Shown: positions 15,601 through 47,552, counted from the stretch's first letter. The stretch: DNA of 64,000 nucleotides from Candidatus Anderseniibacteriota bacterium (GCA_046350905.1 JAXLZN010000001.1:1220-65219); one strand, 5' to 3'. Notes: generated from the letters alone by a model not told the origin. Translations and numbers: made by a program.

Positions 15601-17250
15601 GTTGGCGTCGAGTCCGTCGAGCGTGAGCGAGTTGCCGATGTCGATCGTGACGCTGGCCGGCATCGTGAGTGTGCGGTCGGTGCTGTCGTTACTGGCGTCC
15701 GACTTGGCCAGGTCGTAGAAGGTGATCGGTCCGCTCGCCGCAATGGTTTGGTTGACCCCGTCGAGCGTCACCGACGACGTGTTGGCTGCGAACGTGCCGT
15801 TGAGCGTGAGGCCTCCGCCGACCGTCACCGTCGAGGCTCCCAGGGTGAGCGAACCTGCCGCCGCATCACTCAACGCGCCATCCACGTCGAGGGTCTGGCC
15901 GGTGGTATCGAGCGGCCCGCTCGTGATAGTCAAGGTCGTGACGTGGAGCGGGCTACCCAGGCTGTAAGCGTCTTGCGTGCCCGCGGTATCGTTGATGGCG
16001 AGCGTAAAGTAGTCGGTCCCGCCAAAGTCCTGAATCGTGATCGGGTCAGACGAGCCATCGTTGTTGCCGACGTACTGCCAGACACCACTGTTGGTATCCT
16101 GGCTGATGCTGATCGTCTCGAGACCAGTGCGGCGCAGGGTGCCGTCGTTGCTAAAAGTACCGTTAGCGGTAACGTTTTTGCCGCTCGTGACCAACGTGGC
16201 ATTGGTGCCGATGGTCAAGTCGTTGGCGCCGATGTTGAGGTCGTTGTCGATCAAGCTAACCGTGCTGGCGCTGTTGGTGACGGACACGTCAGAACCGATC
16301 GCGACCGTACCTTGGTTGACCGTTTGAGCACCGCTGCCGTCAAAGGTCAGGGTGCCGGTGTGCGTGAGCGTGCCGTCGTTGTCGAGGTTGCCCGCTACGC
16401 TGATCGCGTTGGCAGCGGCGTTGAGCGTACCGAGGATGTGGAGGCTGCCGTTGTCGTCGATGGCGTTGGTCGAGAGGGTCTTGCCAGCATTGATACGCAG
16501 TGTGCTGCCGCCCACAACGCTCAACGTACCGCCCGACACATCGTAGATGCTCGTGATGTCGTTGCCCGAACCACCTGGGTCAGCGTTGTTGGCGGTGTCG
16601 AGGTTGGCGGTGGTGAGCGGCCCGGCATCTTCGTGCTGTGCGACCAAGAAGTCTTGGTAGATGTCGGCAGCTACGGTCCCGACTCCGTTGTAGCGCGTGA
16701 CCGTTACGCCGTTTTCGGTCTGGTCGTCCAGGTAGACTGTTAGAACCGCGCCGTTGGCGATTGCCGTGCCGTAGTCGATGCTGAAAGCCCCACCACCGCT
16801 CGTACTACCAGTTGCTCCCGTATCCACCCCATCGACAAGCAAACGTACCGTGCGACCAGCCCCCATGGTCGTAACACCCTCGTCGGTGTAGGCAGTTCCG
16901 CTAACGGCTGCACCAAACCAACCGACGTTGTTGCCACTGTCGATAGAGTTAGCTGGGACGAGCGGGAGCGCAACCCCGGAGGAATTGTCCGTTACGGTAC
17001 TATCCGAGACATCGAGGTAGTCACCCGTAAAGGTCGAGGAGCCCTTAAAATCGATCGAACTCGTGGCACCGGGAGTGCCCGAGACGATGTTGATGCGATC
17101 ATCGTTGTCTAAGCCATCCAGGGTCAGGGAGCTTGCGATCGTAACGGTCGCACTTGCCGTCATGCTTATTGTGGTATCCGTCGCGTCGTTGGTTGTTTCG
17201 GTCTTACTAAGGTTGTAGAACGTAACATCGCTCAAAATAATTTGAGTCAC
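11500..17250 (-). repeat. tandem coding repeat, period ~1.5 kb, about 4 copies
   Basis: The YTDEG-encoding landmark recurs near 16880, 15376, 13876 and 12394. Positions 15031-15160 are identical to 16537-16666 (130 nt, offset 1506). Confidence 0.7.
12383..14834 (-). pseudogene. central repeat copies of the giant gene, multiply frameshifted
   Basis: ORF fragments 12383..13201, 13545..13784, 13913..14119, 14061..14834 and 14377..14703 each encode pieces of the same module (NVTANGTF.NNGTLRRTGLET.., TLDGLDANDR.., DIYQ..) in different frames. Confidence 0.5.
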
Positions 17251-19119
17251 TCCGGATCCATCCAGAACAACCGTTCCATTGTTGTGGGTAAAGGTTGTGC
17301 CGCTGTTGTTGTTAAAGTTGAGGGCAACCGTCATGGTGCCGCTGGGGGCAGTAAAAGAGGCGGCTGTGTTGAGGCCAAACGAGTTGTTGACGTCAAAGGT
17401 GCTGTAGGCGCCAAAATTTTGCGTACCGCCGCTCTGGGTGTAGTTACCGTTGGTAATCAAGCCGCCAAACCCAGAAAGCACGCCAGTGCTGTCAAGCGCA
17501 AAGTGGGCAACGTTTCCTGAAGCGCCCACGGTGAGCGTGCCTGTACCGGACAAGGTGCCGTCCAGCGTGATTTGACCGCCCGTACCAGAGCCGATAGTCG
17601 GGTTGTTGCCGAGTGGGAAGGTGCAGGCGCTGCCGATAGTCTTGTTGCCGCTGGTGTGAGTGAACGTAACCAGGTTAAAGGTCGCGCTGTTGCAGCTGAG
17701 GCTGGCACCGCTCGCACCGTTAAAATTCAGCGTGCCCCCGTTGTGTACAAAGGTGCCACTAAAATTGATGGTGAAGGCACCTGCCACAGACATAGTCCCC
17801 GAAGGTGCGGTGAAGGTCCCTGCGGAGAGGGTAAAGAGGCTCGCTACCGTCATGGGGCTGTAGGCACCGAAGTTAGCAGTCGCCCCTGCCACAATTAACG
17901 AGTTCGCCGCCAGACCACCAAAACCTGAGAGGCTCGAGCCTGTGTTCATGGTAAACGTGCCGCCCGAGAAGGTCAGCGTGCCCGTACCAGAGAGCGTACC
18001 GTTAAGCGTTAAGCTGCCGCCACCACTGGAGCCAACAGTTGGGTTACTGCCCAACGGTAGGCTGCAGTCGCTGTTGACGGTCGCAGTGTTGGCAGTATGC
18101 GTAAACGTAACGAGGTTGAAGGTCGCACTGTTACACGCCAGTGCTGACGAAGTCGTCATCGTGAAGGTAAGCGTGCCCCCGTTGGCCGTAAAAGTGCCGC
18201 CGCTGATCGTCATAGCCTTGGCGATCGTCATAGTCCCCGAGGGAGCGGTAAAGGTTCCCGAGGAGAGTGTAAAGTTGTTGTTAATCGTCACCGGGCTGTA
18301 GGTGCCAAAGTTTGCGGTAGCCCCCGCAACAGTTAGTGTGCCGAAGTCCGTAAAACCACTAAAACCAGACAGGCTTGAGCCGGCGTTGAGCGTGAGGGTG
18401 TTGGCGGTACCGGACGAACCGAGCGAGAGGGTCCCGCTGCCAGAGAGCGTCCCGTTGAGGGTGATCAATCCACCGGTGGCTGTGGTCGGATTGCTACCTA
18501 AAGGAAAGCTACAGTCGCTGTTGATCGTCCGTGTACCACTCGAATGGTTAATCGTCACGGCATTAAAGCTCACGTTGTTGCAAGCGAGAGTTGCGCTACC
18601 TGTGCTTGCAATGTTGACCGTGCCGCTGTTGTGCGTAAACGTCCCACCGGTGATGGTGATGGTGCTGTTGAGGCTCATGGTGCCGGAGGGCGCCGTGAAA
18701 GTCCCCGAGGCCAAGGTGAAGGTGCCACTCACCGTCATGGGGCTGTAGCTGCCAAAGTTTGCGGTAGCACCTTGAATGTTGAGACCACTTCCACTAAACC
18801 CGCTGAACCCGGACAAGCTGGAGCCGGCGTTGAGACGCAACGTGCCGCCAGATGCAGTGAGCGTCCCACTACCTGAGAGCGTGCCGTTGAGGGTGATGCT
18901 TCCGCCGCCGCCAGACCCGATCGTGGGGGTGCTGCCAAGTGGGAAGCTACAGTCGCTCGAGACTGTTTTGGTACCACCCGTGTGGGTAAAAGTTACCAAG
19001 TTGAACGTCTTGCTATTGCAGGTTAAGGTTGGGCTAGCAAGACCGTTAAAGGTGACCGTTCCGCTGTTATGTGTAAACGTGACACCTGCGCCGAGCGTAA
19101 AGGTGCTCGAGACGGTCAA
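14752..19119 (-). CDS. N-terminal/central part of giant surface protein (1455-aa intact ORF)
   Basis: The first ~640 aa are ~146-aa Gly/Thr/Ser-rich repeats (LNAGSSLSGF..ATANFG.YSP..GTFTAPSGTM..GGTFTHNSGT..CN..FN.VTF.HT). Two full ~500-aa modules follow (..LTLDGLD.NDR.NIVS.TPG..STFTGD.LD..DS.VTDNSSG.., SGT.YTDEGVT..G.G.TVRLL..). Confidence 0.8.
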   Translation of the reverse strand: MTVSSTFTLGAGVTFTHNSGTVTFNGLASPTLTCNSKTFNLVTFTHTGGTKTVSSDCSFPLGSTPTIGSGGGGSITLNGTLSGSGTLTASGGTLRLNAGSSLSGFSGFSGSGLNIQGATANFGSYSPMTVSGTFTLASGTFTAPSGTMSLNSTITITGGTFTHNSGTVNIASTGSATLACNNVSFNAVTINHSSGTRTINSDCSFPLGSNPTTATGGLITLNGTLSGSGTLSLGSSGTANTLTLNAGSSLSGFSGFTDFGTLTVAGATANFGTYSPVTINNNFTLSSGTFTAPSGTMTIAKAMTISGGTFTANGGTLTFTMTTSSALACNSATFNLVTFTHTANTATVNSDCSLPLGSNPTVGSSGGGSLTLNGTLSGTGTLTFSGGTFTMNTGSSLSGFGGLAANSLIVAGATANFGAYSPMTVASLFTLSAGTFTAPSGTMSVAGAFTINFSGTFVHNGGTLNFNGASGASLSCNSATFNLVTFTHTSGNKTIGSACTFPLGNNPTIGSGTGGQITLDGTLSGTGTLTVGASGNVAHFALDSTGVLSGFGGLITNGNYTQSGGTQNFGAYSTFDVNNSFGLNTAASFTAPSGTMTVALNFNNNSGTTFTHNNGTVVLDGSGVTQIILSDVTFYNLSKTETTNDATDTTISMTASATVTIASSLTLDGLDNDDRINIVSGTPGATSSIDFKGSSTFTGDYLDVSDSTVTDNSSGVALPLVPANSIDSGNNVGWFGAAVSGTAYTDEGVTTMGAGRTVRLLVDGVDTGATGSTSGGGAFSIDYGTAIANGAVLTVYLDDQTENGVTVTRYNGVGTVAADIYQDFLVAQHEDAGPLTTANLDTANNADPGGSGNDITSIYDVSGGTLSVVGGSTLRINAGKTLSTNAIDDNGSLHILGTLNAAANAISVAGNLDNDGTLTHTGTLTFDGSGAQTVNQGTVAIGSDVSVTNSASTVSLIDNDLNIGANDLTIGTNATLVTSGKNVTANGTFSNDGTLRRTGLETISISQDTNSGVWQYVGNNDGSSDPITIQDFGGTDYFTLAINDTAGTQDAYSLGSPLHVTTLTITSGPLDTTGQTLDVDGALSDAAAGSLTLGASTVTVGGGLTLNGTFAANTSSVTLDGVNQTIAASGPITFYDLAKSDASNDSTDRTLTMPASVTIDIGNSLTLDGLDANDRVNIVSSTPTTQSTLNFTGSSTFTTAGFLDVTDSAVTDNSSGVTVPLNPANSINGGNTSNWFGFTISGTVYTDEGVTNIGVGKTVRLLINGANSGSTNDTNGSGQYSITYNDIVASGAVLTLYLDDEAENGVTVTRFDGSVAVPSLDIYQDFLVAQHEDAGPLTTANLDTANNADPGGSGNDITSIYDVAAGTLTSTATSTLRVNSGKTLSTGAVDVNGSLHILGILSSGANAINVAGNLDNDGTLTHTGTLTLDGTIAQTCNAGGSAIGSDLSSPTPSTR

Positions 19120-19832: not shown

Positions 19833-20099
19833 CTACGGTATGCCCGACCGCATCAAGGTAAGCTTTTCTTGGCGAGAGAGCGCTTTTATTTGGCGTTCAC
19901 GATGCAGCGCAGCTTTTTTTGACGGACACGGCTGGACGTACACCAACGTAACCGGCAAACGCGAGCGCGTGTACTTGGCACCCGTACCAGCATTGTGCTG
20001 CGCGACGCGCTTGGGCACATCAACCGTCCAGCCGGTGTAGAGCGAACCATCGCTGCAGCGGACTACGTAGACAAAGTGTACGGGCATTAGGTCGATCAA
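19833..20099 (-). CDS. GIY-YIG nuclease superfamily protein (small YhbQ/UPF0213-like)
   Basis: 88 aa. HFVYVVRCSDGSLYTGWTVDVPKRVAQHN..R.LP..LVY........A...E.QIK is the GIY-YIG core. The ORF starts 4 nt after the tRNA-Asn 3' end. Confidence 0.8.
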   Translation of the reverse strand: MIDLMPVHFVYVVRCSDGSLYTGWTVDVPKRVAQHNAGTGAKYTRSRLPVTLVYVQPCPSKKAALHRERQIKALSRQEKLTLMRSGIP

Positions 20100-20102
20100 T
20101 TC

Positions 20103-20384
20103 CTGGCTCCGGGGGTGGGGGTCGAACCCACGACCTTCTCCTTACACGTATCCCAGGGTTTCCCGTGGGCGTGGACTATATCTTTGCCGTAACCCGTTGA
20201 GGTTGTAGGCACCTTGGTATCTAGTCTCTACGGAGCTCCCTCGCGAGAGGGTTCCCACGGTGTCGCCATTGCTGCCGTTGCCGGCTGCGGAAGGGTTCAC
20301 CGTTATCCCAAGATTGTTCATCGCACGGTTTCCCGCACGAGCTGCCAAGTGACAGGGAGCTGCTCTACCGCTGAGCTACCCCGG
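20103..20384 (-). tRNA. tRNA-Asn(GUU), interrupted by a group I intron; CCA encoded
   Basis: 5' exon 20384->20351: TCCGGGGTAGCTCAGCGGTAGAGCAGCTCCCTGT. 3' exon 20143->20103: TAAGGAGAAGGTCGTGGGTTCGACCCCCACCCCCGGAGCCA. Joined they give a 75-nt cloverleaf with anticodon loop CUGUUAA and G73. Confidence 0.8.
20144..20350 (-). ncRNA. group I intron (207 nt, ORF-less) in tRNA anticodon loop
   Basis: Core elements on the minus strand: GTGCGGGAAACC (P-like, 20337-20326), TCCGCAGCC (Q-like, 20290-20282), GTAGAGACTAGA (R-like, 20230-20219), AAGATATAGTCC (S, exact consensus, within 20184-20171). P1 pairs CUGU|C with GGCAG and has a U.G at the splice site. The terminal nucleotide is G. Confidence 0.85.
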
Positions 20385-20395
20385 AACGCCACGGC

Positions 20396-20430: not shown

Positions 20431-21478
20431 CTAGCGCTGCGCAGCCATGCGGGCAAGGGCGCGAACCACATCGTAGGCGACCTGCCGTGGCTGACCCGAG
20501 ACCGGGTAGTGGTGCGGGAGGATTGTGGGCGGGCTGTTGACCTCGACCACGACCGGTCGCGCGGCACGCTGCGTGCGGCCGGCGATGTTTTCGGTGAGGA
20601 TGTCGACGCCCGCGATGGCCAAGCCGGCCGCACGCGCCGTTCGCTCCACCAGCTTTTTGATGTAGGGCGAGGTCTGGTCGGTCACGTCCTCACTCCAGGC
20701 GCCCATCGAGCCGTTGGCGTTGGACCGGACCTGCACGGCACGCCCGGCGGCGGGCACCGAGTCGAGCGTCAGCTTGGCCCGGTTGAGCATGCGCTGGAAC
20801 TCGCGGTCGACCTCGAACGGACCGAGCAGCCTGGTCTGGCGCCGCGCCCGGCGGTTGTGGTCCTCGATCAGGTCGCCGACGGTGGAGTGGCCGTCACCGA
20901 CGATGCGCGGGTGGTAGCGGCGTGCCACGGCCAGACATTTGCCGTTGAGCACAAAGCAGCGGTGGTCCAGCCCGGGGTGGTGCCGCTGCACGACAAAGCG
21001 CTTGTTGCGCGCCTTGCGACGGATGAACTCAAAGGCGTGCTCGTAGGCAGCGCGCAGCTCTTCGTCGGTCTGGATGTCAGCCGCTACGCCGCTCCCTGCG
21101 AACCCCGGTCGGGCTTGACGACCACCGCGCGCTTTGGAAAGCCGAGCTTGCGCGCCGCCACCCGAATCTCCTCCCAGCTGCGCGCCAGGTCTCCGGCACC
21201 GGGGCGCCCAAGTCCGAGAGCAGGATGTGCGCCAGCCACTTGTGCTCAAAGATCCAGTCGGTGGCGCGGTCGTTGAGCGGCAGGATCTCCTTGTGCACGT
21301 AGACCCGGTGCTGTCCCCGCCCAAAGGCCATCAGGCTCTCGTTGTAGTCGAGCACCTCGACCGGTACCCCCAGTCGCTTAGCCGCGAACAGCAGCACCTG
21401 GTTGGCGATGTAGAGCCGGGCGTTGGGACCCGTACGGTAGGGCGGCATCGGGATGGGGACCATGCTGCGGCGAGCCAT
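20431..21478 (-). pseudogene. ATP-grasp ligase (cyanophycin-synthetase N-domain / RimK-like), two frame breaks at 21085-21190
   Basis: ORFs 21077..21478 and 20431..21324 plus a third-frame bridge SWEEIRVAARKLGFPKRAVVVKPDRGSQGA. ATP-grasp motifs: VVKPDRGSQGAGV and SNANGSMGAWSEDVTDQTSP (CphA-like NxSxGG..DVTD..HP). Confidence 0.7.
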
Positions 21479-21479
21479 G

Positions 21480-23236
21480 CTAGGTCGCGCTACGTTCGCT
21501 ACGGAGCGCCAACAGAAAGGGCGGCGGCTCGCGGTGGCCGTGGCGGCGGAGGGTTGCAGCGAACGCCGGCGTGACCTTGCCGACCATCAGCTCGTTGAGG
21601 ACATCCAGAATCGTCTGGGCCACGGTGAGTTGCGGGATCGTAGCACGGCGCCGGGAGCGCACAAGCTGCCGGACGAGACGGCGGGCCACCTCGCGCGCTA
21701 GCCAGGCTTCGAGCCGCTTGATGCCGCGGTAGTAGGCAGCGTCCCGCAGGTTGACGTTGCGCGGCCGGCGGCGGCCGTCGGTCATGCGCACCAGCCGGCG
21801 GATCGTTTCGTAGAGTTCGTCGGCGGGCGGGCCGAACTGCGCGCACAGGTCGTAGATCTCCTGCCAGGAGTAGCGCGGCACGCGGCGCGCCCCGCCGCGT
21901 GCCGCGCGAGTCTGCATCGCCAGGTTGGCGGCGTAGTAGCCGAGGGCGTGGCTCTCGCGCCGGTGGTGCGACGCTCGGTCACGGCGAGGCGTTCGAGCAG
22001 CGAGGCGAGCCCCTCCTCGTAGTCGAGGCTGCCGCGCACACCCGTCGCCAGGATGGCAAAGGGTCCCCGCCGGCCGGCCTCGGCACGCAGGATGTGCGAG
22101 AGCTCGTGGAGGCCGAGGTCGAGGTAGCGGTCCTGCATCGAGAGCAGGGGCGGGTCGCCGGGGAGCTCGAGCAGGAGGACGCGGCGCTGCTCAGGCTGCA
22201 CGACGATCGAGGCGCTGGCGTAGGGCGACACGTCGACGCTCCACCCCACGCTGGCAGGCTGGTCGGGACGACGGAGGGGCAACCCCAGACGCTTGAGGTT
22301 GGCGCGAACGACGCGCGCGGCTTGGCTGGCGCGCAGGGTTTTGTGGAGCGGCCGCTGGGCGAGGTAGGGCACGTGCGCACCATCTGCAGCCCGAAAGACC
22401 GCCGCCAGCAGCCGCGCGCGGAGCCGCTCGGCCGCACCAGCAGGTGCTCGTGCGCTGAGTTCGTCGACGAGGTGGAGCGCGGCCGTCCCGTGCGTCGTGT
22501 GCGGCAGCCTGCGGAGGCGTTGCGCCGCTACGGCGTATACGCGCGCCGGCAGCAGCCGGCGCCAGCGGGCGAGGAGCTGGCGGCGCACCGCTGGTGTCAG
22601 TGGGAGGCTCGCCAGGACGCGACGCTGAAACGCCACGAGTTCGTCTTGGGCAGCGGCGGCAAACTCGAGCTCACCCTCGCCGGGGCCGTGGTAGAGCGCC
22701 CAGAGCTCGCGTCCAGCCGCGGGCGTGCCGCGGGCGAGGGCGACCCGCAGCTCGTGAGCGCCGGTCAGGTACTCCGCGAGTACGTACGGCGGGATGGTGC
22801 GGAGCTGCCCGCGGTGCTGGTCGCGATGGAGCTCCCTCGTACGCCGCTCGAGCATGGCGAGGCTGGTCCGCAAGGCGCGTCGGTCCAGCTGCAGGAGGTA
22901 GCGCGGTCGGCTGCGCCGGAGCAGCGCATCCGCCGTACCAGCCTCGAGCGCACGGCGCAGCCGACGCCCGTAGGGCACAGTAAAGTTGCTCGCCGGGAGC
23001 CAGGAGCTCGGGGTGGGCTGGTGCAGGTAGCCGTTGAGCCAGCGGTCGGGTTGCTCGGTTCGCCGCAGCGTCGCACGCGGGCTGCGCACAAAGGTGATGC
23101 GGCCGTGCAGGTACGCAAGACCTGCGCTCAGTACGCCTGCCACGTCAGGTGCTGCCACTGTTGACAGTAGCGTAGCACCCCGCGCGGGTGGGTGTGGTAG
23201 GATTTGGGCACTTACCCGGTAACCAAAGGGAATCAC
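21480..23236 (-). pseudogene. DUF1704 / MATCAP-like zinc metallopeptidase (QEGLA-motif family), one frame break near 21950
   Basis: HExxH in DLGLHELSHILRAE and EGLA in SLDYEEGLASLLERL. The C-terminal part continues in ORF 21480..21917 (..RVPRYSWQEIYDLCAQFG..). Its stop is 1 nt from the ATP-grasp start. Confidence 0.65.
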
Positions 23237-23239
23237 TAT

Positions 23240-24865
23240 ATGAGGCGTCTACGCCCTCTTTCGTTCCTGCTCGCCCTAGCGACTACGCTGTGGACGGGAG
23301 GTTTTTCGTACCTACAGTTCGCGCCTGTCGCGAACGCTGCCGCACCGGCAGATAGCAGCCTGCAGGTCCTCGGCTCGCCCGAGTCGCTGCTGCAAGCTGG
23401 TCCAGCTTTGACTGGCTCAGACCTGAAGAGCAACGGCCAGGCCTTCAAGGACGCGGTTGCTGCAGACCGCGCCAAGCTGCAGACCAAGAGCGTGCAGGGC
23501 TCATCGGTCAACGGCAAGGACGTGACCATGGCCCCGAGCATCAGCGAGAACACCATCGCGGTGCTCCCCGCAACTATGTCGGCTCTCGACAGCTGGGACG
23601 GCGTCACGGTCGAACGTAACGACGCGAGCGGTCGACGCTACGTGGCCTGGATTGATGGTCGCGATGCGGCTTCGGCTGGTCTGTCATCGATCTACTTCAG
23701 CCGCTCGACCGATAACGGCGCGACCTGGAGCAGCCCGGTCCGCGCGGACAACCCCGCCGGTGGTCCGGCCTACGTCTGGCTCGGCCTCAACCTGGTAGCT
23801 GACCAGCAGGGCCACCTCGTGTTGGTGTGGGATGACTACCGCACCCTCGGTACAGGCGGTGGCGTCGCGCAAGTCTTCTACAGCCGTTCGAGTGACGCGG
23901 GGCAAACCTGGACGACACCGACGGCCCTGACGACGGATAGCCGCGTCTCGGTCTTCGCGCCGTACATCAACGGTACGATGGACAGCGACGGCAACACCAA
24001 CATTTTCTGGAGCGACGTGCGCACAGGCACTGCATTTGGTCCGGTCCGCGTCTACAGCATCCACTCGGGCAACCGTGGGACGAGCTGGGACCTCAACCAG
24101 ATCATCGACGATTCGGCTGGTACCGGGGCCGACTTTGCGCAGCGTGCAGCCCTCGGTAAAAACGGTGAGGTCATGGTGGGCTGGGACAGCAACCGTGCGG
24201 GCGGCTCGGGTGAGGACTTCATCCTGGCACGTTCGACCAACGGTGGTACCTCGTTTGCCGCAGACGTCATGATCAACCAGTACGCTGCCGGAACGATCAA
24301 CCTCGACCGGCTGCACCTCTGCTCAGACAGCCACGGCCAGGTGCTGGCAGCCTGGATGGGCGACGACCCGTCAACCTCTGACCCCGGCACGATCTACACA
24401 CGCACCTCGGCAGATTTTGGTGCCACCTGGTCAGCAACCAGCCCTGTGCTTACGACGAACGCTGACTTGGTCGACCCGACGCCGGCCGCCTGTGCGTTTG
24501 GCAGCACCCACATGGCAGTGGGCTGGCAGGACAAGACCAACAACGCCCTCAACGTAGCCTCGAGCAACGACGGTGGCGCCAACTGGTCTATCCAGGGTGT
24601 CGAACGCGACGTTCCTCTTGGATGCTGCGACGCTGACGAATTCTTGCTCGGCGTCGACAACGCCGGTCGCGTGCTTGCTGTCTGGACCGACAGCCGCAAC
24701 GGCACCAACGACGTGTTCGTCAACTACTCACTGGATGGCGGTACGACCTGGCAGACGGCCGACTTTAAGGCCACCAACCAAGTTCCGTCTGGCTCGAGCA
24801 CGGTCGTCCTCGGCAACGCCAGTTTCTCTCTGGCCCAGGGCAACCCCGACGCTACCGGCGCCTGA
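23240..24865 (+). CDS. secreted BNR/Asp-box repeat beta-propeller protein
   Basis: Signal peptide MRRLRPLSFLLALATTLWTGG. Six or more Asp-boxes: SRSTDNGATWS, SRSSDAGQTWT, RSTNGGTSF, TSADFGATWS, SSNDGGANWS, YSLDGGTTWQ. An SD-like AAAGGGA precedes ATG 23240. Confidence 0.8.
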   Translation: MRRLRPLSFLLALATTLWTGGFSYLQFAPVANAAAPADSSLQVLGSPESLLQAGPALTGSDLKSNGQAFKDAVAADRAKLQTKSVQGSSVNGKDVTMAPSISENTIAVLPATMSALDSWDGVTVERNDASGRRYVAWIDGRDAASAGLSSIYFSRSTDNGATWSSPVRADNPAGGPAYVWLGLNLVADQQGHLVLVWDDYRTLGTGGGVAQVFYSRSSDAGQTWTTPTALTTDSRVSVFAPYINGTMDSDGNTNIFWSDVRTGTAFGPVRVYSIHSGNRGTSWDLNQIIDDSAGTGADFAQRAALGKNGEVMVGWDSNRAGGSGEDFILARSTNGGTSFAADVMINQYAAGTINLDRLHLCSDSHGQVLAAWMGDDPSTSDPGTIYTRTSADFGATWSATSPVLTTNADLVDPTPAACAFGSTHMAVGWQDKTNNALNVASSNDGGANWSIQGVERDVPLGCCDADEFLLGVDNAGRVLAVWTDSRNGTNDVFVNYSLDGGTTWQTADFKATNQVPSGSSTVVLGNASFSLAQGNPDATGA

Positions 24866-24986: not shown

Positions 24987-25916
24987 GTGGCAGTCGCGCA
25001 GAACCAGTTCCCGACCGCAGGAACGGTCTCGGGGGCGGTCTTTGCCACCGGTGAGAACTTCCCAGACGGCCTCTCCTCGACCTCGCTCGCCGCGATGGTC
25101 AACGGACCGGTCTTCTTGGTTAAGCACAACTCGCTGCCCTCAGAGGTTGCAGCGGAGTTCCTGCGTGAGTACGACAAGAAGACGGACGCCGGCACCGACG
25201 CCTACGTGGTCGGTGGTACCTCCGCGGTCAGTACGAGCGTCGAGAACGCCATTAAGGCGCTCGACCCCTCGATCAACCTCAAGCGTCTCTCTGGCAGCAA
25301 CCGCAAGAAGACCGCAGTGGCGGTTGCCAAGGAAGAGGACGTGCTGCGCGGCTCGACCCCCAAGCAGGCCATCATGGCCAACGCGGGTGGCTTTGCGGAC
25401 GCCCTGACCGGTGGTGCCATTGCCGGCAACACCGGCATCCAGAACGACCTGATGCCGGTCCTCTTGACCGACACGGGCTCGCTCGACCCTGACACCAAGG
25501 CCTACCTGTCCTCGATCGCCAGTACGCTGACCCAGCTCCACATCATCGGTGGTACCTCAGCAGTCTCGTCTGCGACGGCGACTGCCGCTGACGCAGTGGT
25601 TGCAACGGTGGTCCGCCACGCTGGTGGCAACCGCTACAGCACGGCGACGCAGGCAGCTTCGGACTTCTTCAAGGGCAGCTTGGCGCCGCAGAAGTTCGGC
25701 CTAGCGAGCGGGACCAACTTCCCCGACTCGCTGACCGGTGGCCTGTGGGCAGCCCTGCACCTCTCGCCGCTGCTCCTCAGCGACCCGAGCACCTTGAGCA
25801 GCGAGACCTCGACGTACCTCACCGCTAACGCCGGCACGATTGATAGCGGCGCAGCCTTCGGTGGGACGTCAGCGCTCAAGCAAGCAGTCCTCGACGCAGC
25901 CTCTGCGCTCTACTAG
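24987..25916 (+). CDS. triple CWB2 (cell wall binding repeat 2) domain protein; probably the C-terminus of the BNR protein
   Basis: Three repeats with GENFPDGLSSTSLAAMVNGPVFLV, GGFADALTGGAIAG..MPVLLT and GTNFPDSLTGGLWAALHLSPLLLS. There is no signal peptide of its own. See the finding on the 24860-24975 frame breaks. Confidence 0.75.
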   Translation: MAVAQNQFPTAGTVSGAVFATGENFPDGLSSTSLAAMVNGPVFLVKHNSLPSEVAAEFLREYDKKTDAGTDAYVVGGTSAVSTSVENAIKALDPSINLKRLSGSNRKKTAVAVAKEEDVLRGSTPKQAIMANAGGFADALTGGAIAGNTGIQNDLMPVLLTDTGSLDPDTKAYLSSIASTLTQLHIIGGTSAVSSATATAADAVVATVVRHAGGNRYSTATQAASDFFKGSLAPQKFGLASGTNFPDSLTGGLWAALHLSPLLLSDPSTLSSETSTYLTANAGTIDSGAAFGGTSALKQAVLDAASALY

Positions 25917-26001: not shown

Positions 26002-27222
<1,221 letters not shown>

Positions 27223-32390: not shown

Positions 32391-32480
32391 TGGCGGAGGG
32401 AGTGGGATTCGAACCCACGGTACTATTTCTAGTACACGGTCTTTCCAGGACCGCCGTTTCAACCACTCACGCATCCCTCC
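32391..32480 (-). tRNA. tRNA-Ser(GGA), CCA encoded
   Basis: Minus strand: GGAGGGA TG ... CGGTC CTGGAAA GACCG, a long variable arm TGTACTAGAAATAGTACC, T arm GTGGG TTCGAAT CCCAC, then TCCCTCC G CCA. Confidence 0.9.
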
Positions 32481-43321: not shown

Positions 43322-43699
43322 TTAGCTTATTAACTCTATACATTTCGAGACCAATTCTTTCGGCATGTTCTTTGTCTTCTCGAAAAAAGCAATGGCGCCG
43401 AGCTTCCTGGACTCTTCTAACTTGGCCGCTGAAGAAATGTTTGTGAGCATGACTACGGGAATGTCCTTTGTAGATTCATTTTGCTTAAGTTTTTTTAGAA
43501 CTTGTAAGCCGTCCATACCTTCCATCAGAACATCAAGTAAAATCAGGTCGGGATGCCACCTCACCGCACTTGACAGTCCATCCAAGCCGTTAGTTTCAGT
43601 CATTACCTCAAAGCCCTCAAGCTCAAATGGCAGTTTGTACAACAAGGCTTGGTCGTCATCATCTTCAACTAGTAAGATCTTTTTTTCAGTGTTGTTCAT
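43322..43699 (-). CDS. receiver-only response regulator (CheY-like)
   Basis: ILLVEDDDD, phospho-acceptor LILLDVLM, VVMLTN, and a conserved Lys. There is no output domain. Confidence 0.85.
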   Translation of the reverse strand: MNNTEKKILLVEDDDDQALLYKLPFELEGFEVMTETNGLDGLSSAVRWHPDLILLDVLMEGMDGLQVLKKLKQNESTKDIPVVMLTNISSAAKLEESRKLGAIAFFEKTKNMPKELVSKCIELIS

Positions 43700-45249
43700 T
43701 TTCTTTCTGCCTTTGAAAATTCCAACGTAAATGTTGTCCCTTTGTTCTCACCTTCTGATACAAAGCGAATAGAGCCCCCCGGATGCGATTCAATAATTTT
43801 CTTCACTATAAACAGGCCAAGTCCGGAGCCATCTGCGTAAGCCTTAATTGCATTTGATGCGCGTTTGAACTTCTCAAATATTCTTGGCTGTTCAGCAATT
43901 GGAATTCCAATGCCGGTGTCTGAAACTGTCAGTACTGCTTTATCGTTCGTCTCGCGCAGACCTATTCGTACAAACCCCTCATTGGTGTATTTTATTGCGT
44001 TGTCGATGACGTTAGAAATCGCGTGCTCCAGATAATGCGACGAAGCAAGGATGGTAATGGGGGCACCAATATCGATGCCCTGGTATTCCAGTTTTATTTT
44101 CTTTGCTGCAGCCTTCTCTTGTAGATCGTCGCAGATACTTTTTGTTATGGCCCTCAAGTTAATTGGCAGAAGGTCACCTTGAGCCAGTTTGAATGCCACA
44201 ATATCCATTTCTGAAGCTGTAAGGATGTCGTTAACTATGTTGGTCAGTTTTTTCGATTTGTGGAAAAGTCCAGACATCATCATTTTCTTCTTCTCTGCCG
44301 GGATTTTGTCTAAGTCCCCTTCCTCAAGCATTGAGAGCGTACCCGTAATCAACGAAACAGGTGTGCGAAGTTGGTGCGACGCCACGTACAAAAACTCAGA
44401 GCGAGCTTTGATGAGCTCTTCAATTTCTTGACTCTGCGCAATCTCCTTTCTCAGAGCACGAACTATGAAAACAATTAGGAGTGTTATTAGGGCTAAAATA
44501 ACTAGGACCAAAAATCCGATAAACGCGAGAAACGGGTATAGAGTTTGACGCGTAATACTAAAAAAATCGTTTGCTTTTACATCTGTGCCTAGAATTGCAA
44601 CGGTGTTCCCGTTCTCATCTATTATTGGAGCGTATCCAGTCAGAACCGTTCCGTAGTCATCGGTATACAGGTCCTTATTTGTTAGCGGACCGCTGTAAGC
44701 ACTAAACGCCTCTGGAATGTCAGAGGCTTCTGGATAGCCCTGCCCTGGCCACTGAAGTTTATCAGGGCCATCTGGTTCCACCTTGCCGTCGCGATTCACA
44801 TCAACGTATCTGGATGGGTCGTCGCTGGTATTGGCAAACGGGTCAATGGAATCGGCATCCGCCACAAACTCCATTTGAGTTGGGTCGATGCTCGTCTTCC
44901 TAAAGATATACATAAAGACAACGTCTTGGTTGGAATACTTGGCGCGATGCAAGCTATTGACTACCCGTGCCCATTCCGGCTTTTGCCAGTCCTCTTGTAC
45001 GTTAAGCGCGCTCAGGTCTTTCGGATCAATATTTGCTGCTTCGGTAATTGAGATACTGAGCAAGCGCTCTCGAAGGTTATCCTGCAGCAGGACAACGGTT
45101 CGTTGATAAAGGATCCCCGAAGCAAGAATGGCGACAGCAATACTAGTCAGTGCGATAGAGGCACCAATAAATACCAGCTGCCTAGTTTTCCTAGTTTTTA
45201 TTTTTTTGTCCATGTTGCGAGACATCAAGTAAACGATAGACTCTTTCAC
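43696..45249 (-). CDS. sensor histidine kinase with extracytoplasmic Cache-like domain
   Basis: Two TM helices flank a PDC/Cache-like domain (DDYGTVLTGYAPIIDENGNTVAILGTDV). H-box ASHQLRTPV, N-box IDNAIKYT, G1 SDTGIGI, G2 GSGLGL. Confidence 0.85.
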   Translation of the reverse strand: MKESIVYLMSRNMDKKIKTRKTRQLVFIGASIALTSIAVAILASGILYQRTVVLLQDNLRERLLSISITEAANIDPKDLSALNVQEDWQKPEWARVVNSLHRAKYSNQDVVFMYIFRKTSIDPTQMEFVADADSIDPFANTSDDPSRYVDVNRDGKVEPDGPDKLQWPGQGYPEASDIPEAFSAYSGPLTNKDLYTDDYGTVLTGYAPIIDENGNTVAILGTDVKANDFFSITRQTLYPFLAFIGFLVLVILALITLLIVFIVRALRKEIAQSQEIEELIKARSEFLYVASHQLRTPVSLITGTLSMLEEGDLDKIPAEKKKMMMSGLFHKSKKLTNIVNDILTASEMDIVAFKLAQGDLLPINLRAITKSICDDLQEKAAAKKIKLEYQGIDIGAPITILASSHYLEHAISNVIDNAIKYTNEGFVRIGLRETNDKAVLTVSDTGIGIPIAEQPRIFEKFKRASNAIKAYADGSGLGLFIVKKIIESHPGGSIRFVSEGENKGTTFTLEFSKAERK

Positions 45250-47047
45250 CTTCTATATCCATCAGAAATGGTGCGAGTGGAGGTCCTGACTCTCTACCCA
45301 ACAACAACTGATACACATTCTTAAAAAAGCGAGCCTGGCGCGCGCTATTTTGCGTTTTTGTCGCATTTGGCAACTTAGGAATTTGATAAAGCAATGAACG
45401 GAACCGGTCGGCAGATAACGAAGACCTGCGGTGAATCATGTTTCTTAGCAATCTAAGATGCTGAATATCATCAGGCTGCAGTAAGGGAAACAATTCCACA
45501 TTAGGACGATCAAGAACGAAGTAAAGCTTGTTTTTTCTTACCTCGAGATACCTAGCGTTGTCTGTGTTACTAATAGAATGAAGATCGAGATATGCGACGT
45601 CATCAGGGCGTGCAACTTGTGTTCCTATAGATTTCTGTGATCTTATCTTAAGCAATCTTGACACGTCTTTAACTCTGATTTTTCCCGATACCCTCGGCGG
45701 TACCGATCCCTGATGTCTTTTGCGGTGAGCAAGAAATGGTTTCACAATCCATTCGAAGATATCGCGCTGTGGCAATGTGGGCTCCGCTTTTGTTTTCCCG
45801 TTGATGCTGATACTAGAAGCTCCGTAGCCACTACCTCCATAGGGCTTTGTGCCTCGCTCCACACCAGGCGCATGTAAATGCGTATTGTGAAGTAGGGATG
45901 ATCTTGGGTGAAGCACCCGCCCCTTTATTTTTTTTCCAATCATTTTTTGAACGTAGATACTTGTTCCATAGAGTGTTACGTACATGGCATGCTGGGCGTA
46001 TCGGCTATCTTCAAAATAATGATCGAGATCACTATCTCTTCCATACTCTTGAACAAAAACAATCGGTGCAAAAATTTCATTGTAATTGCCCCCCTTGAGT
46101 AGGGGTTTGCAGACAATCGTCGGTTCGACAACGGCATCACTTGCCCTGATTATTCCTGGCGTAGACAGGTCAAGCCATTTTCGATTCTCTACCAGAAAAT
46201 TCTGAATCCTAACGAGATCTTTTGGATCGCCAATGGGGCCGACTCTGCTTTGCTTAGAGGAGTAACTGCCGACATCGAGGCTTGCAACATGGCTCCGAAG
46301 GATGGACAAGAATTTTCTCATGACGCTTTTGTGAACGAGGATTGCATTTGGCGCGGCACAATCTTGCCCTTGATTGTAGAACTGCAATGTGACGACCGCC
46401 TCAACAGCCTTGAGAAGGTCAGCATCTCGCGCTACAACCAGGGGATTATGACCAGCTCCGTTTGCGATGAAAAGTGTATGCTTATCAAATACTGCTCTTA
46501 GCTGGTCAGCATGAGTGGGTGTGCCTGTGAAAATCACTACGTCCGTTACGGGGCTTTTTTCGTCTGTTTGGGAGTTGATCAGAAGCGCTGATCTTTCCTC
46601 GAGAAACTCAACTCTGGAGGACTTAGAGACGATTACGTTTGGAAAAAATTTAGGTACGTCAAGGAGAGCAAGCATGTCATCAAAGAAATGTCTCATGGTA
46701 TGAGGTATACGAAAATACACCTTACTCGCCATCAGAGAAGGCACGAGCACAAAACAAGTTAGTGCATACAAGGGTTGGTTTCTGGGAAGGAACGAGGCGA
46801 TAGTTCCAACCCTTAACTGAAAGAAGTTTCCGTTCTCCTTTAGGTTTCTCAACAGATCGAGAGTCCGAGCCGTTTCATCCTTGATCACCTCGTAACTTTC
46901 GTAACTAGACAGAATTGGAGCTAATTTGCCAAAACGAGACTCGATGATGTCGGCAAAGGATCGTGCAAGTCGTTCAATCGCTGCGAAGTCAAGCGGGGTA
47001 TATGGAACAGGGTTCTTTTTCACAATTATCTTTTTTGTCTTCTTCAT
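45191..47047 (-). CDS. atypical aldehyde-dehydrogenase-superfamily protein fused to a ~170-aa C-terminal extension
   Basis: The ALDH Cys motif FYNQGQDCAAPNAILV and NEIFAPIVFV are present. The ELGG general-base motif is replaced by IANGAGHNP. The C-terminal tail contains FFKNVYQLLLGRESGPPLAPFL. Confidence 0.7.
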   Translation of the reverse strand: MKKTKKIIVKKNPVPYTPLDFAAIERLARSFADIIESRFGKLAPILSSYESYEVIKDETARTLDLLRNLKENGNFFQLRVGTIASFLPRNQPLYALTCFVLVPSLMASKVYFRIPHTMRHFFDDMLALLDVPKFFPNVIVSKSSRVEFLEERSALLINSQTDEKSPVTDVVIFTGTPTHADQLRAVFDKHTLFIANGAGHNPLVVARDADLLKAVEAVVTLQFYNQGQDCAAPNAILVHKSVMRKFLSILRSHVASLDVGSYSSKQSRVGPIGDPKDLVRIQNFLVENRKWLDLSTPGIIRASDAVVEPTIVCKPLLKGGNYNEIFAPIVFVQEYGRDSDLDHYFEDSRYAQHAMYVTLYGTSIYVQKMIGKKIKGRVLHPRSSLLHNTHLHAPGVERGTKPYGGSGYGASSISINGKTKAEPTLPQRDIFEWIVKPFLAHRKRHQGSVPPRVSGKIRVKDVSRLLKIRSQKSIGTQVARPDDVAYLDLHSISNTDNARYLEVRKNKLYFVLDRPNVELFPLLQPDDIQHLRLLRNMIHRRSSLSADRFRSLLYQIPKLPNATKTQNSARQARFFKNVYQLLLGRESGPPLAPFLMDIEGERVYRLLDVSQHGQKNKN

Positions 47048-47385
47048 TTACGTATTTGCATGAAAACAATACCTGCAAGAGCCAAACCCATGCCAAAAAG
47101 TTGGTACATGGAAAAGTTGCCCCATTCATGAAAGAAAAAAAGGCCAACCAGGATAGTGGTTGATGTTAGTAGAACGTCGACGGTAGCTGAGGCTGCGGAC
47201 AACCCCAATTTCTCAGCAACTAAGCCGAAAGAAATAAACACCAGGGGGGAAACGACTACGATGACAAGAAGCCAAGGGGAAACAAACTTGTTTACTTTGC
47301 TGGCCCAAACGGCACTTACTGAATTCGCGATCAGCGCCGTAAGAACGGCTACCGCAATGTAGAACAAGGTAGGTAAGCGGGGCAC
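47044..47385 (-). CDS. SMR/DMT-like 4-TM small membrane protein
   Basis: 113 aa with four hydrophobic helices. ATGA overlaps the ALDH-like gene start. No EmrE-type TM1 Glu. Confidence 0.5.
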   Translation of the reverse strand: MPRLPTLFYIAVAVLTALIANSVSAVWASKVNKFVSPWLLVIVVVSPLVFISFGLVAEKLGLSAASATVDVLLTSTTILVGLFFFHEWGNFSMYQLFGMGLALAGIVFMQIRK

Positions 47386-47391
47386 GAAGCT

Positions 47392-47400
47392 ACTGTATCA
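47392..47400 (-). promoter_or_regulatory. extended -10 TGATACAGT; predicts a leaderless operon transcript
   Basis: The minus strand TGATACAGT ends 6 nt before GTG 47385. Confidence 0.3.
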
Positions 47401-47552
47401 CGACGTTTGATCGCTTTAGTTGCCCTTGGGAAAGTTACTTCCTTGCTCTTTCGCTTTGGACTGCTGTAATAAGTGTTGCTCGAATAGGACCTCGATGGCG
47501 AGGTACTTGCGCCACATTTTCTTAAGGTTTAGGGTTGTAGACTTTAAGCGAT

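What the first reader, a model, noticed from the sequence alone, without database searches (positions are those of the whole stretch)
20103..20384. Group I intron splits a tRNA-Asn(GUU) gene inside the anticodon
On the minus strand two tRNA halves are separated by 207 nt.
- Half 1 (20384->20351): acceptor, D arm, anticodon stem and CUGU.
- Half 2 (20143->20103): UAA, stem, variable loop, T arm GTGGG/TTCGACC/CCCAC, acceptor, G73 and CCA.
- Joined, they form a regular 75-nt cloverleaf with loop CUGUUAA (anticodon GUU).

The insert carries the classical group I core:
- P-like GTGCGGGAAACC.
- Q-like TCCGCAGCC.
- R-like GTAGAGACTAGA.
- An exact S consensus AAGATATAGTCC.

Splice-site features:
- The exon end CUGU plus the first intron C can pair with intron nt 6-10 (GGCAG). 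This forms P1 with the canonical U.G at the 5' splice site.
- The intron ends in G.

Bacterial tRNA group I introns are classically described in tRNA-Leu(UAA), tRNA-fMet, tRNA-Ile(CAU) and tRNA-Arg(CCU). I do not recall one in tRNA-Asn between positions 35 and 36, so both host tRNA and insertion site may be unusual.
Basis: partly seen in the sequence, partly recalled or inferred. Interest (0 to 1): 0.75.

Follow-up and report, generated by a model that had tools for sequence, protein, structure and literature searches.

The report
Self-splicing intron inside a tRNA-Asn gene
A 207-base group I intron interrupts the anticodon of the asparagine tRNA gene of a candidate-phylum (Patescibacteria) bacterium; it is real, but this type of intron at this site has already been described.

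Summary
The finding is real. On the minus strand a tRNA-Asn(GUU) gene (20385..20104, CCA encoded) is split between anticodon positions 35 and 36 by a 207-nt group I intron (20351..20145).

Main evidence:
- A covariance model built from 25 homologous introns, with the window left out, hits this spot at 166 bits (E about 6e-52).
- My P1-P9 fold is 95% paired across 26 sequences, against 35-44% in slid controls. 27 pairs show compensatory changes.
- Four close relatives carry an intron-less tRNA-Asn(GUU) at the matching place, 71-72 of 75 bases identical to the spliced product. This fixes the splice junction and rules out ARAGORN's tRNA-Thr(UGU) 33/34 call.

Two details were wrong.

It is not new. 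The window comes from a Candidatus Andersenbacteria (Patescibacteria) genome. Group I introns at 35/36 of tRNA-Asn, Asp and Tyr in this phylum were catalogued in 2020 and shown to self-splice in 2025-26. More than 119 species genomes carry this same intron core. Interest is low. The one mildly interesting point is presence/absence variation among close relatives.

The parts
20104..20385 (-). Whole interrupted tRNA-Asn(GUU) gene (282 nt, CCA encoded)
   Evidence: Read directly from the sequence. ARAGORN in intron mode finds a split tRNA here. The spliced form is called tRNA-Asn(gtt), 75 nt.
20352..20385 (-). 5' exon: tRNA positions 1-35 (34 nt; short D loop), ending C32-U33-G34-U35
   Evidence: 97% identical (33/34) to the 5' half of the intron-less tRNA-Asn in L193 and L194.
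20145..20351 (-). Group I intron, 207 nt. Intron nt i corresponds to window position 20352-i.
   Evidence: CM R1, built without the window, gives 166.4 bits, E = 6.3e-52, full-length match at 20357..20139. RF00028 gives 20.6 bits. Covariation supports the fold.
20104..20144 (-). 3' exon: U36 to A76 (UAAGGAG...GCCA), with G73 and encoded CCA
   Evidence: 92.7% identical (38/41) to the 3' half of the intron-less tRNA-Asn in L193 and L194, contiguous with the 5' half in those loci.
20342..20355 (-). P1: exon CUGU plus intron C1 paired with the internal guide G6-G10 (GGCAG). U35.G7 is the wobble pair at the 5' splice site.
   Evidence: CUGU and GCAG are invariant in 26/26 homologues and 100% paired.
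20321..20340 (-). P2 hairpin (nt 12-19 with 24-31) with a GAAA tetraloop.
   Evidence: All 8 pairs show compensatory changes. The MFE fold reproduces it.
20308..20313 (-). P3, 5' strand (nt 39-44)
   Evidence: 100% paired; 4 of 6 pairs have compensatory changes.
20212..20217 (-). P3, 3' strand (nt 135-140). It crosses P7 to form the P3/P7 pseudoknot.
20298..20303 (-). P4, 5' strand (nt 49-54, AACGGUG region). This is the true 'P' element.
   Evidence: 100% paired; A49-U95 switches to U-A in 7 sequences.
20257..20262 (-). P4, 3' strand (nt 90-95, CACCGU). This is the true 'Q' element.
20264..20295 (-). P5 plus its extension, ending in a GCAA-capped hairpin (nt 57-88).
   Evidence: P5 pair 58/86 is C-G in 13 sequences, G-C in 11, G-U in 1 and U-A in 1. 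The extension is variable in length. The MFE fold reproduces it.
20232..20256 (-). P6 / P6a (nt 96-120)
   Evidence: The two P6 G-C pairs are invariant. The outer P6a pairs covary.
20220..20231 (-). J6/7 and P7 5' strand: GUAGAGACUAGA (the 'R' element, nt 121-132)
   Evidence: Invariant in 26/26 sequences. Pairs with 20173-20178.
20185..20211 (-). P8 (nt 141-167), with a CCUAC...UACGG motif resembling an 11-nt GAAA-tetraloop receptor
   Evidence: 100% paired; 3 of 4 pairs are compensatory. The receptor resemblance is my inference from the sequence.
20173..20184 (-). J8/7 and P7 3' strand: AAGAUAUAGUCC (the 'S' element, nt 168-179)
   Evidence: Invariant in 26/26 sequences.
20152..20169 (-). 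P9 hairpin with a GAAA tetraloop (nt 183-200). It has one C.C mismatch (187/196).
   Evidence: 87% paired; 5 of 7 pairs are compensatory.
20145..20145 (-). Terminal guanosine of the intron (omega G)
   Evidence: Invariant G in the alignment.

Best explanation
The gene at 20385..20104 (minus strand) encodes the tRNA-Asn(GUU) of a Candidatus Andersenbacteria (Patescibacteria) bacterium. A compact 207-nt group I ribozyme with no protein gene interrupts it between anticodon nucleotides U35 and U36.

Proposed mechanism:
1. After transcription the intron folds into the group I core (P1-P9 with the P3/P7 pseudoknot).
2. Its guide sequence GGCAG pairs with the exon end CUGU and places U35.G at the 5' splice site.
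3. A free guanosine cleaves there.
4. The terminal G207 takes its place, and the freed U35 3'-OH attacks the 3' splice site.
5. The exons join to give a normal 75-nt tRNA with anticodon loop CUGUUAA.

The fold, the homology and the exact junction are shown here. Splicing itself is inferred, from the intact core and from published in vitro splicing of related introns at the same site.

The intron belongs to a large family that sits after CUGU in tRNA-Asn, tRNA-Asp and tRNA-Tyr genes, mainly in Patescibacteria. In this lineage it is probably a fairly recent arrival, because four close relatives lack it.
For: The intron:
- Independent CM R1 (25 Asn-hosted homologues, window excluded): 166.4 bits, E = 6.3e-52, full length, and the only hit in 64 kb.
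- My P1-P9 structure on alignment A1: 95.1% of cells paired against 35-44% in slid controls. 27 of 50 pairs have compensatory changes. 0 of 500 shuffles reach any of the measures.
- The single-sequence MFE fold reproduces P2, P3, P4, P5, P6 and P8.
- RF00028 aligns end to end at 20.6 bits.

The tRNA and the junction:
- The spliced product is called tRNA-Asn(gtt).
- It is 71-72/75 identical to uninterrupted tRNA-Asn(GTT) genes downstream of dnaG-rpoD in L193 and L194 (compared base by base).
- L195 and L196 also carry an uninterrupted tRNA-Asn(GTT) there. All four have RpoD 88-91% identical to the window's.
- The unusual G27.A43 is shared with L193 and L194, alongside compensatory changes in the anticodon stem.

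The family:
- The same intron core occurs in 119 or more species genomes, almost all Patescibacteria, after CUGU in Asn, Asp and Tyr tRNA genes.
- It also occurs in 9 metagenome contigs, all Asn-hosted.

Organism: RpoD is 100% identical to a Candidatus Andersenbacteria MAG protein.

Literature:
- 35/36 introns in Patescibacteria tRNA-Asn and tRNA-Asp self-splice accurately in vitro.
- A close homologue of this intron (GCA_030583765.1) is listed in the paper's tables (PMC13011429).
Against: - Rfam's curated threshold for RF00028 is not reached (20.6 against 50 bits).
- The introns tested in vitro by Nakagawa et al. have a different core sequence from this one. Their Asn intron has GGUUCAGAGACUA...GAUGAGAUAGUCC. 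No member of exactly this sequence type has been shown to splice, as far as I found.
- P9 carries one C.C mismatch.
- The fold energy z-score is only -1.39.
- Only 64 kb of the genome is visible, so I cannot show that this is the only tRNA-Asn gene. No expression data exist.
Confidence: 0.9

Rival explanations
1. The gene is a tRNA-Thr(UGU) with the intron two bases further upstream, between positions 33 and 34. ARAGORN calls it this way in intron mode.
For: - ARAGORN -i reports tRNA-Thr(tgt) i(33,207).
- That alternative also has a U before the 5' site and a G at the intron end, and it gives a 7-nt loop CUUGUAA.
Against: - The intron-less genes in four close relatives read CUGUUAA and are called tRNA-Asn(gtt). 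In L193 and L194 the two window exons align to them as contiguous blocks 1-34 and 242-282.
- The body has U1-A72 and G73, which are typical of bacterial tRNA-Asn and not tRNA-Thr (established knowledge).
- Only the Asn register puts a U.G wobble at the splice site. The Thr register would put a U-A pair there (sequence).
- This exact two-base mis-call by ARAGORN and tFind is documented in PMC13011429.
Confidence: 0.02
2. The intron is a decayed, splicing-dead relic. The locus would then be a tRNA pseudogene, with a functional tRNA-Asn elsewhere in the genome.
For: - Only 64 kb of the genome is visible.
- P9 has a C.C mismatch.
- RF00028 scores low.
- The neighbouring ATP-grasp gene looks frameshifted, so some decay or assembly error exists nearby.
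Against: - Every column that is invariant across the 25 homologues is also kept in the window sequence: 75 invariant columns, including CUGU, GCAG, R, S and the terminal G.
- All core helices are intact. The window scores as high against R1 (166 bits) as bona fide family members do (143-167 bits).
- The exons are 95-96% identical to the functional-looking genes of L193 and L194.
- Nakagawa et al. note that an intron-containing and an intron-less copy of the same anticodon rarely coexist in one genome.
Confidence: 0.07
3. The resemblance is chance, or an assembly chimera that joins two tRNA fragments across unrelated sequence.
For: The sequence comes from a metagenome-assembled genome.
Against: - The same architecture, with the same junctions, recurs in well over 100 independent assemblies.
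- The CM E-value is about 6e-52.
Confidence: 0.01

Closest known systems
Group I introns at position 35/36 of tRNA-Asn(GUU), tRNA-Asp(GUC) and tRNA-Tyr(GUA) in Patescibacteria (Nakagawa et al. 2026, mSystems, PMC13011429; setting 'Asn.4Ug' of Williams 2020, bioRxiv 10.1101/2020.01.27.920355)
   Same: - Same host tRNA, same insertion site after CUGU, same phylum and no endonuclease gene.
- Same ARAGORN mis-call as Thr(UGU) 33/34.
- The tRNA-Asn intron of GCA_030583765.1 (Paceibacteria, 205 nt) listed in their tables shares whole blocks with the window. These are GGGAUAACGGUGAA, AUACCGUGGGAACCC, CCGUAGAGACUAGAUACC and AAGAUAUAGUCCACGCC.
   Different: - This copy is from a high-G+C (about 64%) Andersenbacteria MAG that was not in their set of complete genomes.
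- The two introns they spliced in vitro have different core sequences from this one.
- Their CM-based typing placed Patescibacteria tRNA introns in subgroup IA. I did not test the subgroup.
Azoarcus pre-tRNA-Ile(CAU) intron and other classical bacterial tRNA introns (tRNA-Leu UAA, tRNA-fMet, tRNA-Arg CCU), subgroup IC3
   Same: - Compact ribozyme of about 200 nt in the anticodon loop of a bacterial tRNA, with no ORF.
- P2 and P9 are capped by GAAA tetraloops, and P8 carries a receptor-like motif.
- The R element GUAGAGACUAGA is the same. This last comparison is from my memory of the Azoarcus sequence and was not tested here.
   Different: - Different host tRNA and insertion position: 36/37, 34/35 or 33/34 against 35/36 here.
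- The guide sequence is different.
- I made no sequence-level comparison here, so the subgroup is unresolved.
Rfam family RF00028 (Intron_gpI)
   Same: The model aligns end to end (positions 1-253), and the R and S regions match strongly.
   Different: The score is 20.6 bits, below the gathering score of 50. By Rfam's own criterion this is not a called member. Williams 2020 states that none of the 12 Rfam seed sequences was bacterial.

Membership tests
Group I intron | P1 helix formed by the 5' exon end and an internal guide sequence, with a U.G wobble at the 5' splice site | tested here: met
   CUGU pairs with GCAG, with U35.G7 at the splice site. This is invariant and 100% paired in 26 sequences.
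Group I intron | Guanosine as the last intron nucleotide (omega G) | tested here: met
   G207 (window position 20145) is an invariant column in A1.
Group I intron | Conserved core helices P3-P9, including the P3/P7 pseudoknot, supported by covariation | tested here: met
   95.1% paired against 35-44% in slid controls. P2, P3, P4, P5, P6a, P8 and P9 show compensatory changes. P6 and P7 are invariant.
Group I intron | Conserved J6/7-P7 and J8/7-P7' sequence elements (R and S), which hold the guanosine-binding site | tested here: met
   GUAGAGACUAGA and AAGAUAUAGUCC are present and invariant. They align to the RF00028 consensus. Guanosine binding itself was not tested.
Group I intron | Score at or above the curated Rfam RF00028 gathering threshold | tested here: not met
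   20.6 bits against 50. A family-specific CM built without the window gives 166.4 bits, E = 6e-52.
Group I intron | Guanosine-dependent self-splicing | not testable with these tools
   Shown in vitro for other 35/36 introns of Patescibacteria tRNA-Asn and tRNA-Asp (PMC13011429), but not for this sequence.
Bacterial tRNA-Asn(GUU) | Canonical cloverleaf with anticodon GUU after removal of the insert | tested here: met
   ARAGORN calls tRNA-Asn(gtt), 75 nt, on the spliced sequence.
Bacterial tRNA-Asn(GUU) | Orthology with uninterrupted tRNA-Asn genes | tested here: met
   71-72/75 identical to intron-less tRNA-Asn(GTT) in L193 and L194, in conserved dnaG-rpoD neighbourhoods. L195 and L196 carry an intron-less tRNA-Asn(GTT) at the same place.
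Patescibacteria 35/36 tRNA intron family (Nakagawa et al.; Williams Asn.4Ug) | Insertion between nucleotides 35 and 36 of a GUN-anticodon tRNA, U at -1, G at omega, in a Patescibacteria genome | tested here: met
   The junction is fixed by the intron-less alleles. The host is Candidatus Andersenbacteria. Block-level homology exists with the published GCA_030583765.1 intron.
Structural subgroup (IA as published for Patescibacteria tRNA introns, or IC3 as for classical tRNA introns) | Best match to a subgroup-specific covariance model; presence or absence of peripheral helices such as P7.1/P7.2 | not tested
   Subgroup models are not available here. I see no room for P7.1/P7.2, because P3' runs directly into P8 at nt 140/141. 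That looks IC3-like to me, but it is an inference. The published typing says IA.

The most novel reading that the evidence does not exclude
This intron has no endonuclease gene and may still be mobile today. It is present in this Andersenbacteria genome but absent from the orthologous tRNA-Asn gene of four close relatives (RpoD 88-91% identical).

Introns of the same family sit after the same CUGU in tRNA-Asn, tRNA-Asp and tRNA-Tyr genes, and they interleave in a rough tree. This would fit spread by reverse splicing, guided by GCAG pairing with CUGU, among the G34-U35 tRNAs. It would go against the published view that horizontal transfer of these introns is limited.
Probability: 0.3. Interest if true: 0.4.

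Novelty: new member of a known kind. Interest (0 to 1): 0.15.

Why it matters
The practical value is for annotation. Default ARAGORN misses this gene. The whole-window Rfam scan at gathering thresholds reported nothing. Intron-aware ARAGORN gives it the wrong identity (Thr instead of Asn). An automated annotation would therefore score this genome as lacking tRNA-Asn, which affects completeness estimates for candidate-phylum genomes. The literature has already made this point.

Scientifically it adds one more instance, in a high-G+C Andersenbacteria lineage, to a family already catalogued and validated. The contrast with four intron-less close relatives is a small but clean data point on how recently these introns move or are lost.

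Tried and rejected
I tested GUGCGGGAAACC pairing with UCCGCAGCC as a helix on the alignment. It was 40.8% paired, the same as slid controls, so I rejected it.
- **tRNA-Thr(UGU) 33/34 register.** Rejected by comparison with intron-less relatives and by P1 geometry.
- **Adjacent GIY-YIG gene as a free-standing homing endonuclease that arrived with the intron.**
  - The 84-88 aa ORF at 20099..19833 starts 5 nt after the tRNA.
  - It is a bare GIY-YIG catalytic domain (PF01541).
  - A 64%-identical homologue lies about 0.9 kb downstream of the intron-less tRNA-Asn in relative L195.
  - It is therefore an ancestral neighbour and was not co-acquired.
- **P10 pairing.** UAAG pairing with CUUG is possible in the window, but it is not conserved among homologues on inspection. 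I do not claim it.
- **Looking up the source contig by exact protein.** This failed three times. The organism was identified through a 100%-identical RpoD cluster instead.
- **Near-identical copies of the intron.** The metagenome scan found none. The best match was 74% identical over the pre-tRNA, so no donor was identified.
- **Subgroup label from Table S5 of PMC13011429.** The stored file is cut off and, from where its rows end, appears to stop before the Patescibacteria entries.
- **My first splice attempt.** One search was off by one base and gave a 6-nt anticodon loop. This was corrected.

Full report
**What is in the sequence**

On the minus strand, 20385->20352 reads UCCGGGGUAGCUCAGCGGUAGAGCAGCUCCCUGU. 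This is the acceptor strand, D arm, 5' anticodon stem and the loop start CUGU. Further on, 20144->20104 reads UAAGGAGAAGGUCGUGGGUUCGACCCCCACCCCCGGAGCCA. The 207 nt between them (20351->20145) begin CACUUGGCAG and end ACGUG.

Joined at these boundaries, the sequence is called a 75-nt tRNA-Asn(gtt) by ARAGORN. Default ARAGORN does not see the gene. In intron mode it reports tRNA-Thr(tgt) with the intron two bases upstream.

**Is the insert a group I intron?**

- Rfam's RF00028 aligns over its full length, but at only 20.6 bits. The gathering score is 50, and E = 0.006 in a 601-base search.
- The whole-window scan at gathering thresholds reported nothing. That scan also failed to report the tRNA-Ser at 32394..32480, which scores 54 bits in a local scan. 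Its silence therefore carries little weight.
- I collected homologues instead. The R..S pattern AGAGACTAGA-N(20-50)-AAGATATAGTC is unique in the window, with 0 matches in 100 shuffles. It occurs on 73 viral contigs, at least 18 of them inside tRNA genes by ARAGORN's intron mode.
Nearly all are Patescibacteria.
- In those loci the intron always follows CUGU in a tRNA gene. ARAGORN called 40 Asp(GUC). It called 11 Asn, plus 17 more that were mis-called Thr(UGU). The rest were Tyr(GUA), some of them mis-called Ser(UGA).

**Structure**

I aligned the window with 25 Asn-hosted homologues (A1) and counted my hand-drawn structure on it. The helices, in intron numbering, are:

| Helix | Positions |
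|---|---|
| P1 | exon CUGU with GCAG |
| P2 | 12-19 / 24-31 |
| P3 | 39-44 / 135-140 |
| P4 | 49-54 / 90-95 |
| P5 | 58-59 / 85-86 |
| P6 | 96-97 / 119-120 |
| P6a | 101-105 / 110-114 |
| P7 | 124, 126-130 / 174-179 |
| P8 | 141-144 / 164-167 |
| P9 | 183-189 / 194-200 |

- 95.1% of cells are standard pairs, against 35-44% when the partners are slid by 1-3 columns.
- 27 of 50 pairs show changes on both sides.
- None of 500 shuffles reaches any of the measures.
- The single-sequence MFE fold finds P2, P3, P4, P5, P6 and P8 on its own.
- A covariance model built from the 25 homologues without the window (A2, R1) hits the window once. The match is 20357..20139 minus, 166.4 bits, E = 6.3e-52, full length.
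- This score lies within the 143-167 bit range of nine further family members from metagenomes.

The 'P-like' GUGCGGGAAACC is the P2 hairpin with its GAAA loop. The 'Q-like' UCCGCAGCC lies in the length-variable P5 extension. Tested as a helix, these two pair in 40.8% of cells, the same as slid controls. The true P4 strands are AACGGUG and CACCGU. The R and S elements, the P1 with U.G and the terminal G were identified correctly.

**Asn or Thr?**

Two registers both give a U before the intron and a G at its end.
- CUGU|...G|UAA gives Asn(GUU) with the intron at 35/36.
- CU|...G|UGUAA gives Thr(UGU) with the intron at 33/34.

I searched with the window's RpoD (26002..27222 minus) and found a 100%-identical NCBI protein from a Candidatus Andersenbacteria MAG. 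NCBI files this group under Patescibacteria / Parcubacteria. The same search found relatives at 88-91% identity.

Four of their contigs (L193-L196) have dnaG-rpoD followed, 6-9.5 kb downstream, by an uninterrupted tRNA-Asn(GTT). None has a match to R1.

In L193 and L194 the window's exons align as two abutting blocks, 1-34 and 242-282 of the pre-tRNA. The spliced window tRNA is 71/75 identical to L193 and 72/75 to L194. Both share the odd G27.A43 pair, and both have compensatory changes in the anticodon stem. The body also has U1-A72 and G73, as bacterial tRNA-Asn does (established knowledge). Only the Asn register puts the U.G wobble at the splice site. The Thr reading is rejected.

**How it most likely works**

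The mechanism is standard group I splicing. GGCAG aligns CUGU, free guanosine attacks after U35, G207 replaces it in the P7 site, and the exons are ligated into tRNA-Asn(GUU).

- Shown here: fold, homology, junction and integrity of all conserved positions.
- Inferred: catalysis.
- The intron is too short for an endonuclease gene. The 68-codon ORF at 20142..20348 is only a mechanical ORF listing, which is not evidence of a gene.
- GAAA loops on P2 and P9 and a CCUAC/UACGG motif in P8 suggest tetraloop-receptor clamps like those of the Azoarcus ribozyme. This is my inference.

**Comparison with what is known**

- Williams (2020, bioRxiv 10.1101/2020.01.27.920355) expanded the four classical tRNA-intron settings to 21.
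- Nakagawa et al. (2026, PMC13011429) cite that work for 'Asn.4Ug'. They report that 15 of 22 tRNA introns in 95 complete Patescibacteria genomes sit at 35/36 of tRNA-Asn.
- They show that ARAGORN and tFind often mis-call these as Thr(UGU) 33/34.
- They show accurate in vitro self-splicing of one tRNA-Asn and one tRNA-Asp intron, with G-to-C controls.
- Their tables list a Paceibacteria tRNA-Asn intron (GCA_030583765.1, 205 nt) that shares long identical blocks with the window's intron.
- The two introns they spliced have different core sequences from this one.
- They assign Patescibacteria tRNA introns to subgroup IA. The window's intron looks IC3-like to me because there is no room for P7.1/P7.2. 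I could not run subgroup models, so this stays open.

**Novelty and verdict**

The host tRNA, the insertion site, the phylum, the mis-annotation problem and the intron sequence family are all published. This copy is a new member of a known kind, and interest is low.

The one observation that goes slightly beyond the literature is the presence/absence contrast with four close relatives. Alongside it, a rough identity-based neighbour-joining tree (no support values) shows Asn-, Asp- and Tyr-hosted introns interleaved. This leaves open that these endonuclease-free introns still move, perhaps by reverse splicing into CUGU-bearing anticodon loops.

I looked for a helper endonuclease. The GIY-YIG gene that starts 5 nt after the tRNA has a homologue near the intron-less allele in L195, so it is not part of the element.

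Noticed in passing
window 19833-20099 (-): A small GIY-YIG catalytic-domain ORF (PF01541, 64 bits) starts 5 nt after the tRNA's CCA end. It has 84 aa from the ATG or 88 aa from the TTG. A 64%-identical homologue lies about 0.9 kb downstream of the intron-less tRNA-Asn in relative L195, so it looks like an ancestral neighbour rather than an intron-associated homing endonuclease. Weaker homologues also lie near intron-bearing tRNA-Asn genes in L080 and L111.
   Followed up: partly
window 20431-21478 (-): An ATP-grasp gene resembling the cyanophycin-synthetase middle domain, just upstream of the tRNA, appears split by a frameshift near 21100-21300. The N-terminal part reads in ORF 21077..21478 and the C-terminal part in ORF 20431..21324. 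It is either a pseudogene or an assembly error.
   Followed up: partly
window 32391-32480 (-): tRNA-Ser(GGA) scores 54 bits against RF00005 in a local Rfam scan. The whole-window scan at gathering thresholds reported no match at all. A negative result from that scan mode should not be trusted on its own.
   Followed up: yes
window 44001-48000: A stretch with much lower G+C (46.5%, against about 64% for the rest of the window). It holds an aldehyde-dehydrogenase-like ORF (45191..47047) and a histidine kinase (43696..45249). It may have been acquired horizontally.
   Followed up: no
whole window compared with L193 and L194: The window has about 64% G+C. L193 and L194, whose RpoD is 88-91% and (L193) GroEL 87% identical to the window's, have about 50% G+C. 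This is a large compositional shift between close relatives in a Patescibacteria lineage.
   Followed up: no
window 14752-19119 (-): A 1455-aa ORF rich in Thr, Gly and Ser, with long internal repeats and no Pfam match. It is probably a large surface protein. Nearby ORFs carry BNR and CWB2 cell-wall-binding domains (23204..24865 and 24987..25916).
   Followed up: no
L001-L073 (viral contigs): 73 viral contigs carry the same R..S core. On at least 18 of them ARAGORN's intron mode places it inside a tRNA gene. It calls these Leu(UAA), Ile, Gln, Cys and 'SeC(tca)', but the identities are uncertain because of splice-register ambiguity. [quoted passage not shown]
   Followed up: partly
L074-L192 (genome loci): All hosts of this intron family are G34-U35 tRNAs (Asn, Asp, Tyr), that is, the queuosine family. 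The intron always follows CUGU. No convincing tRNA-His(GUG) host was seen among the 119 loci.
   Followed up: partly
L080, L103, L125, L130, L143, L146: Several MAGs labelled 'uncultured Gammaproteobacteria' or 'Bdellovibrionales' carry this Patescibacteria-type intron. Where checked (for example L125), the neighbouring primary sigma factor is short, about 370 aa. The taxonomic labels of these assemblies may be wrong.
   Followed up: no
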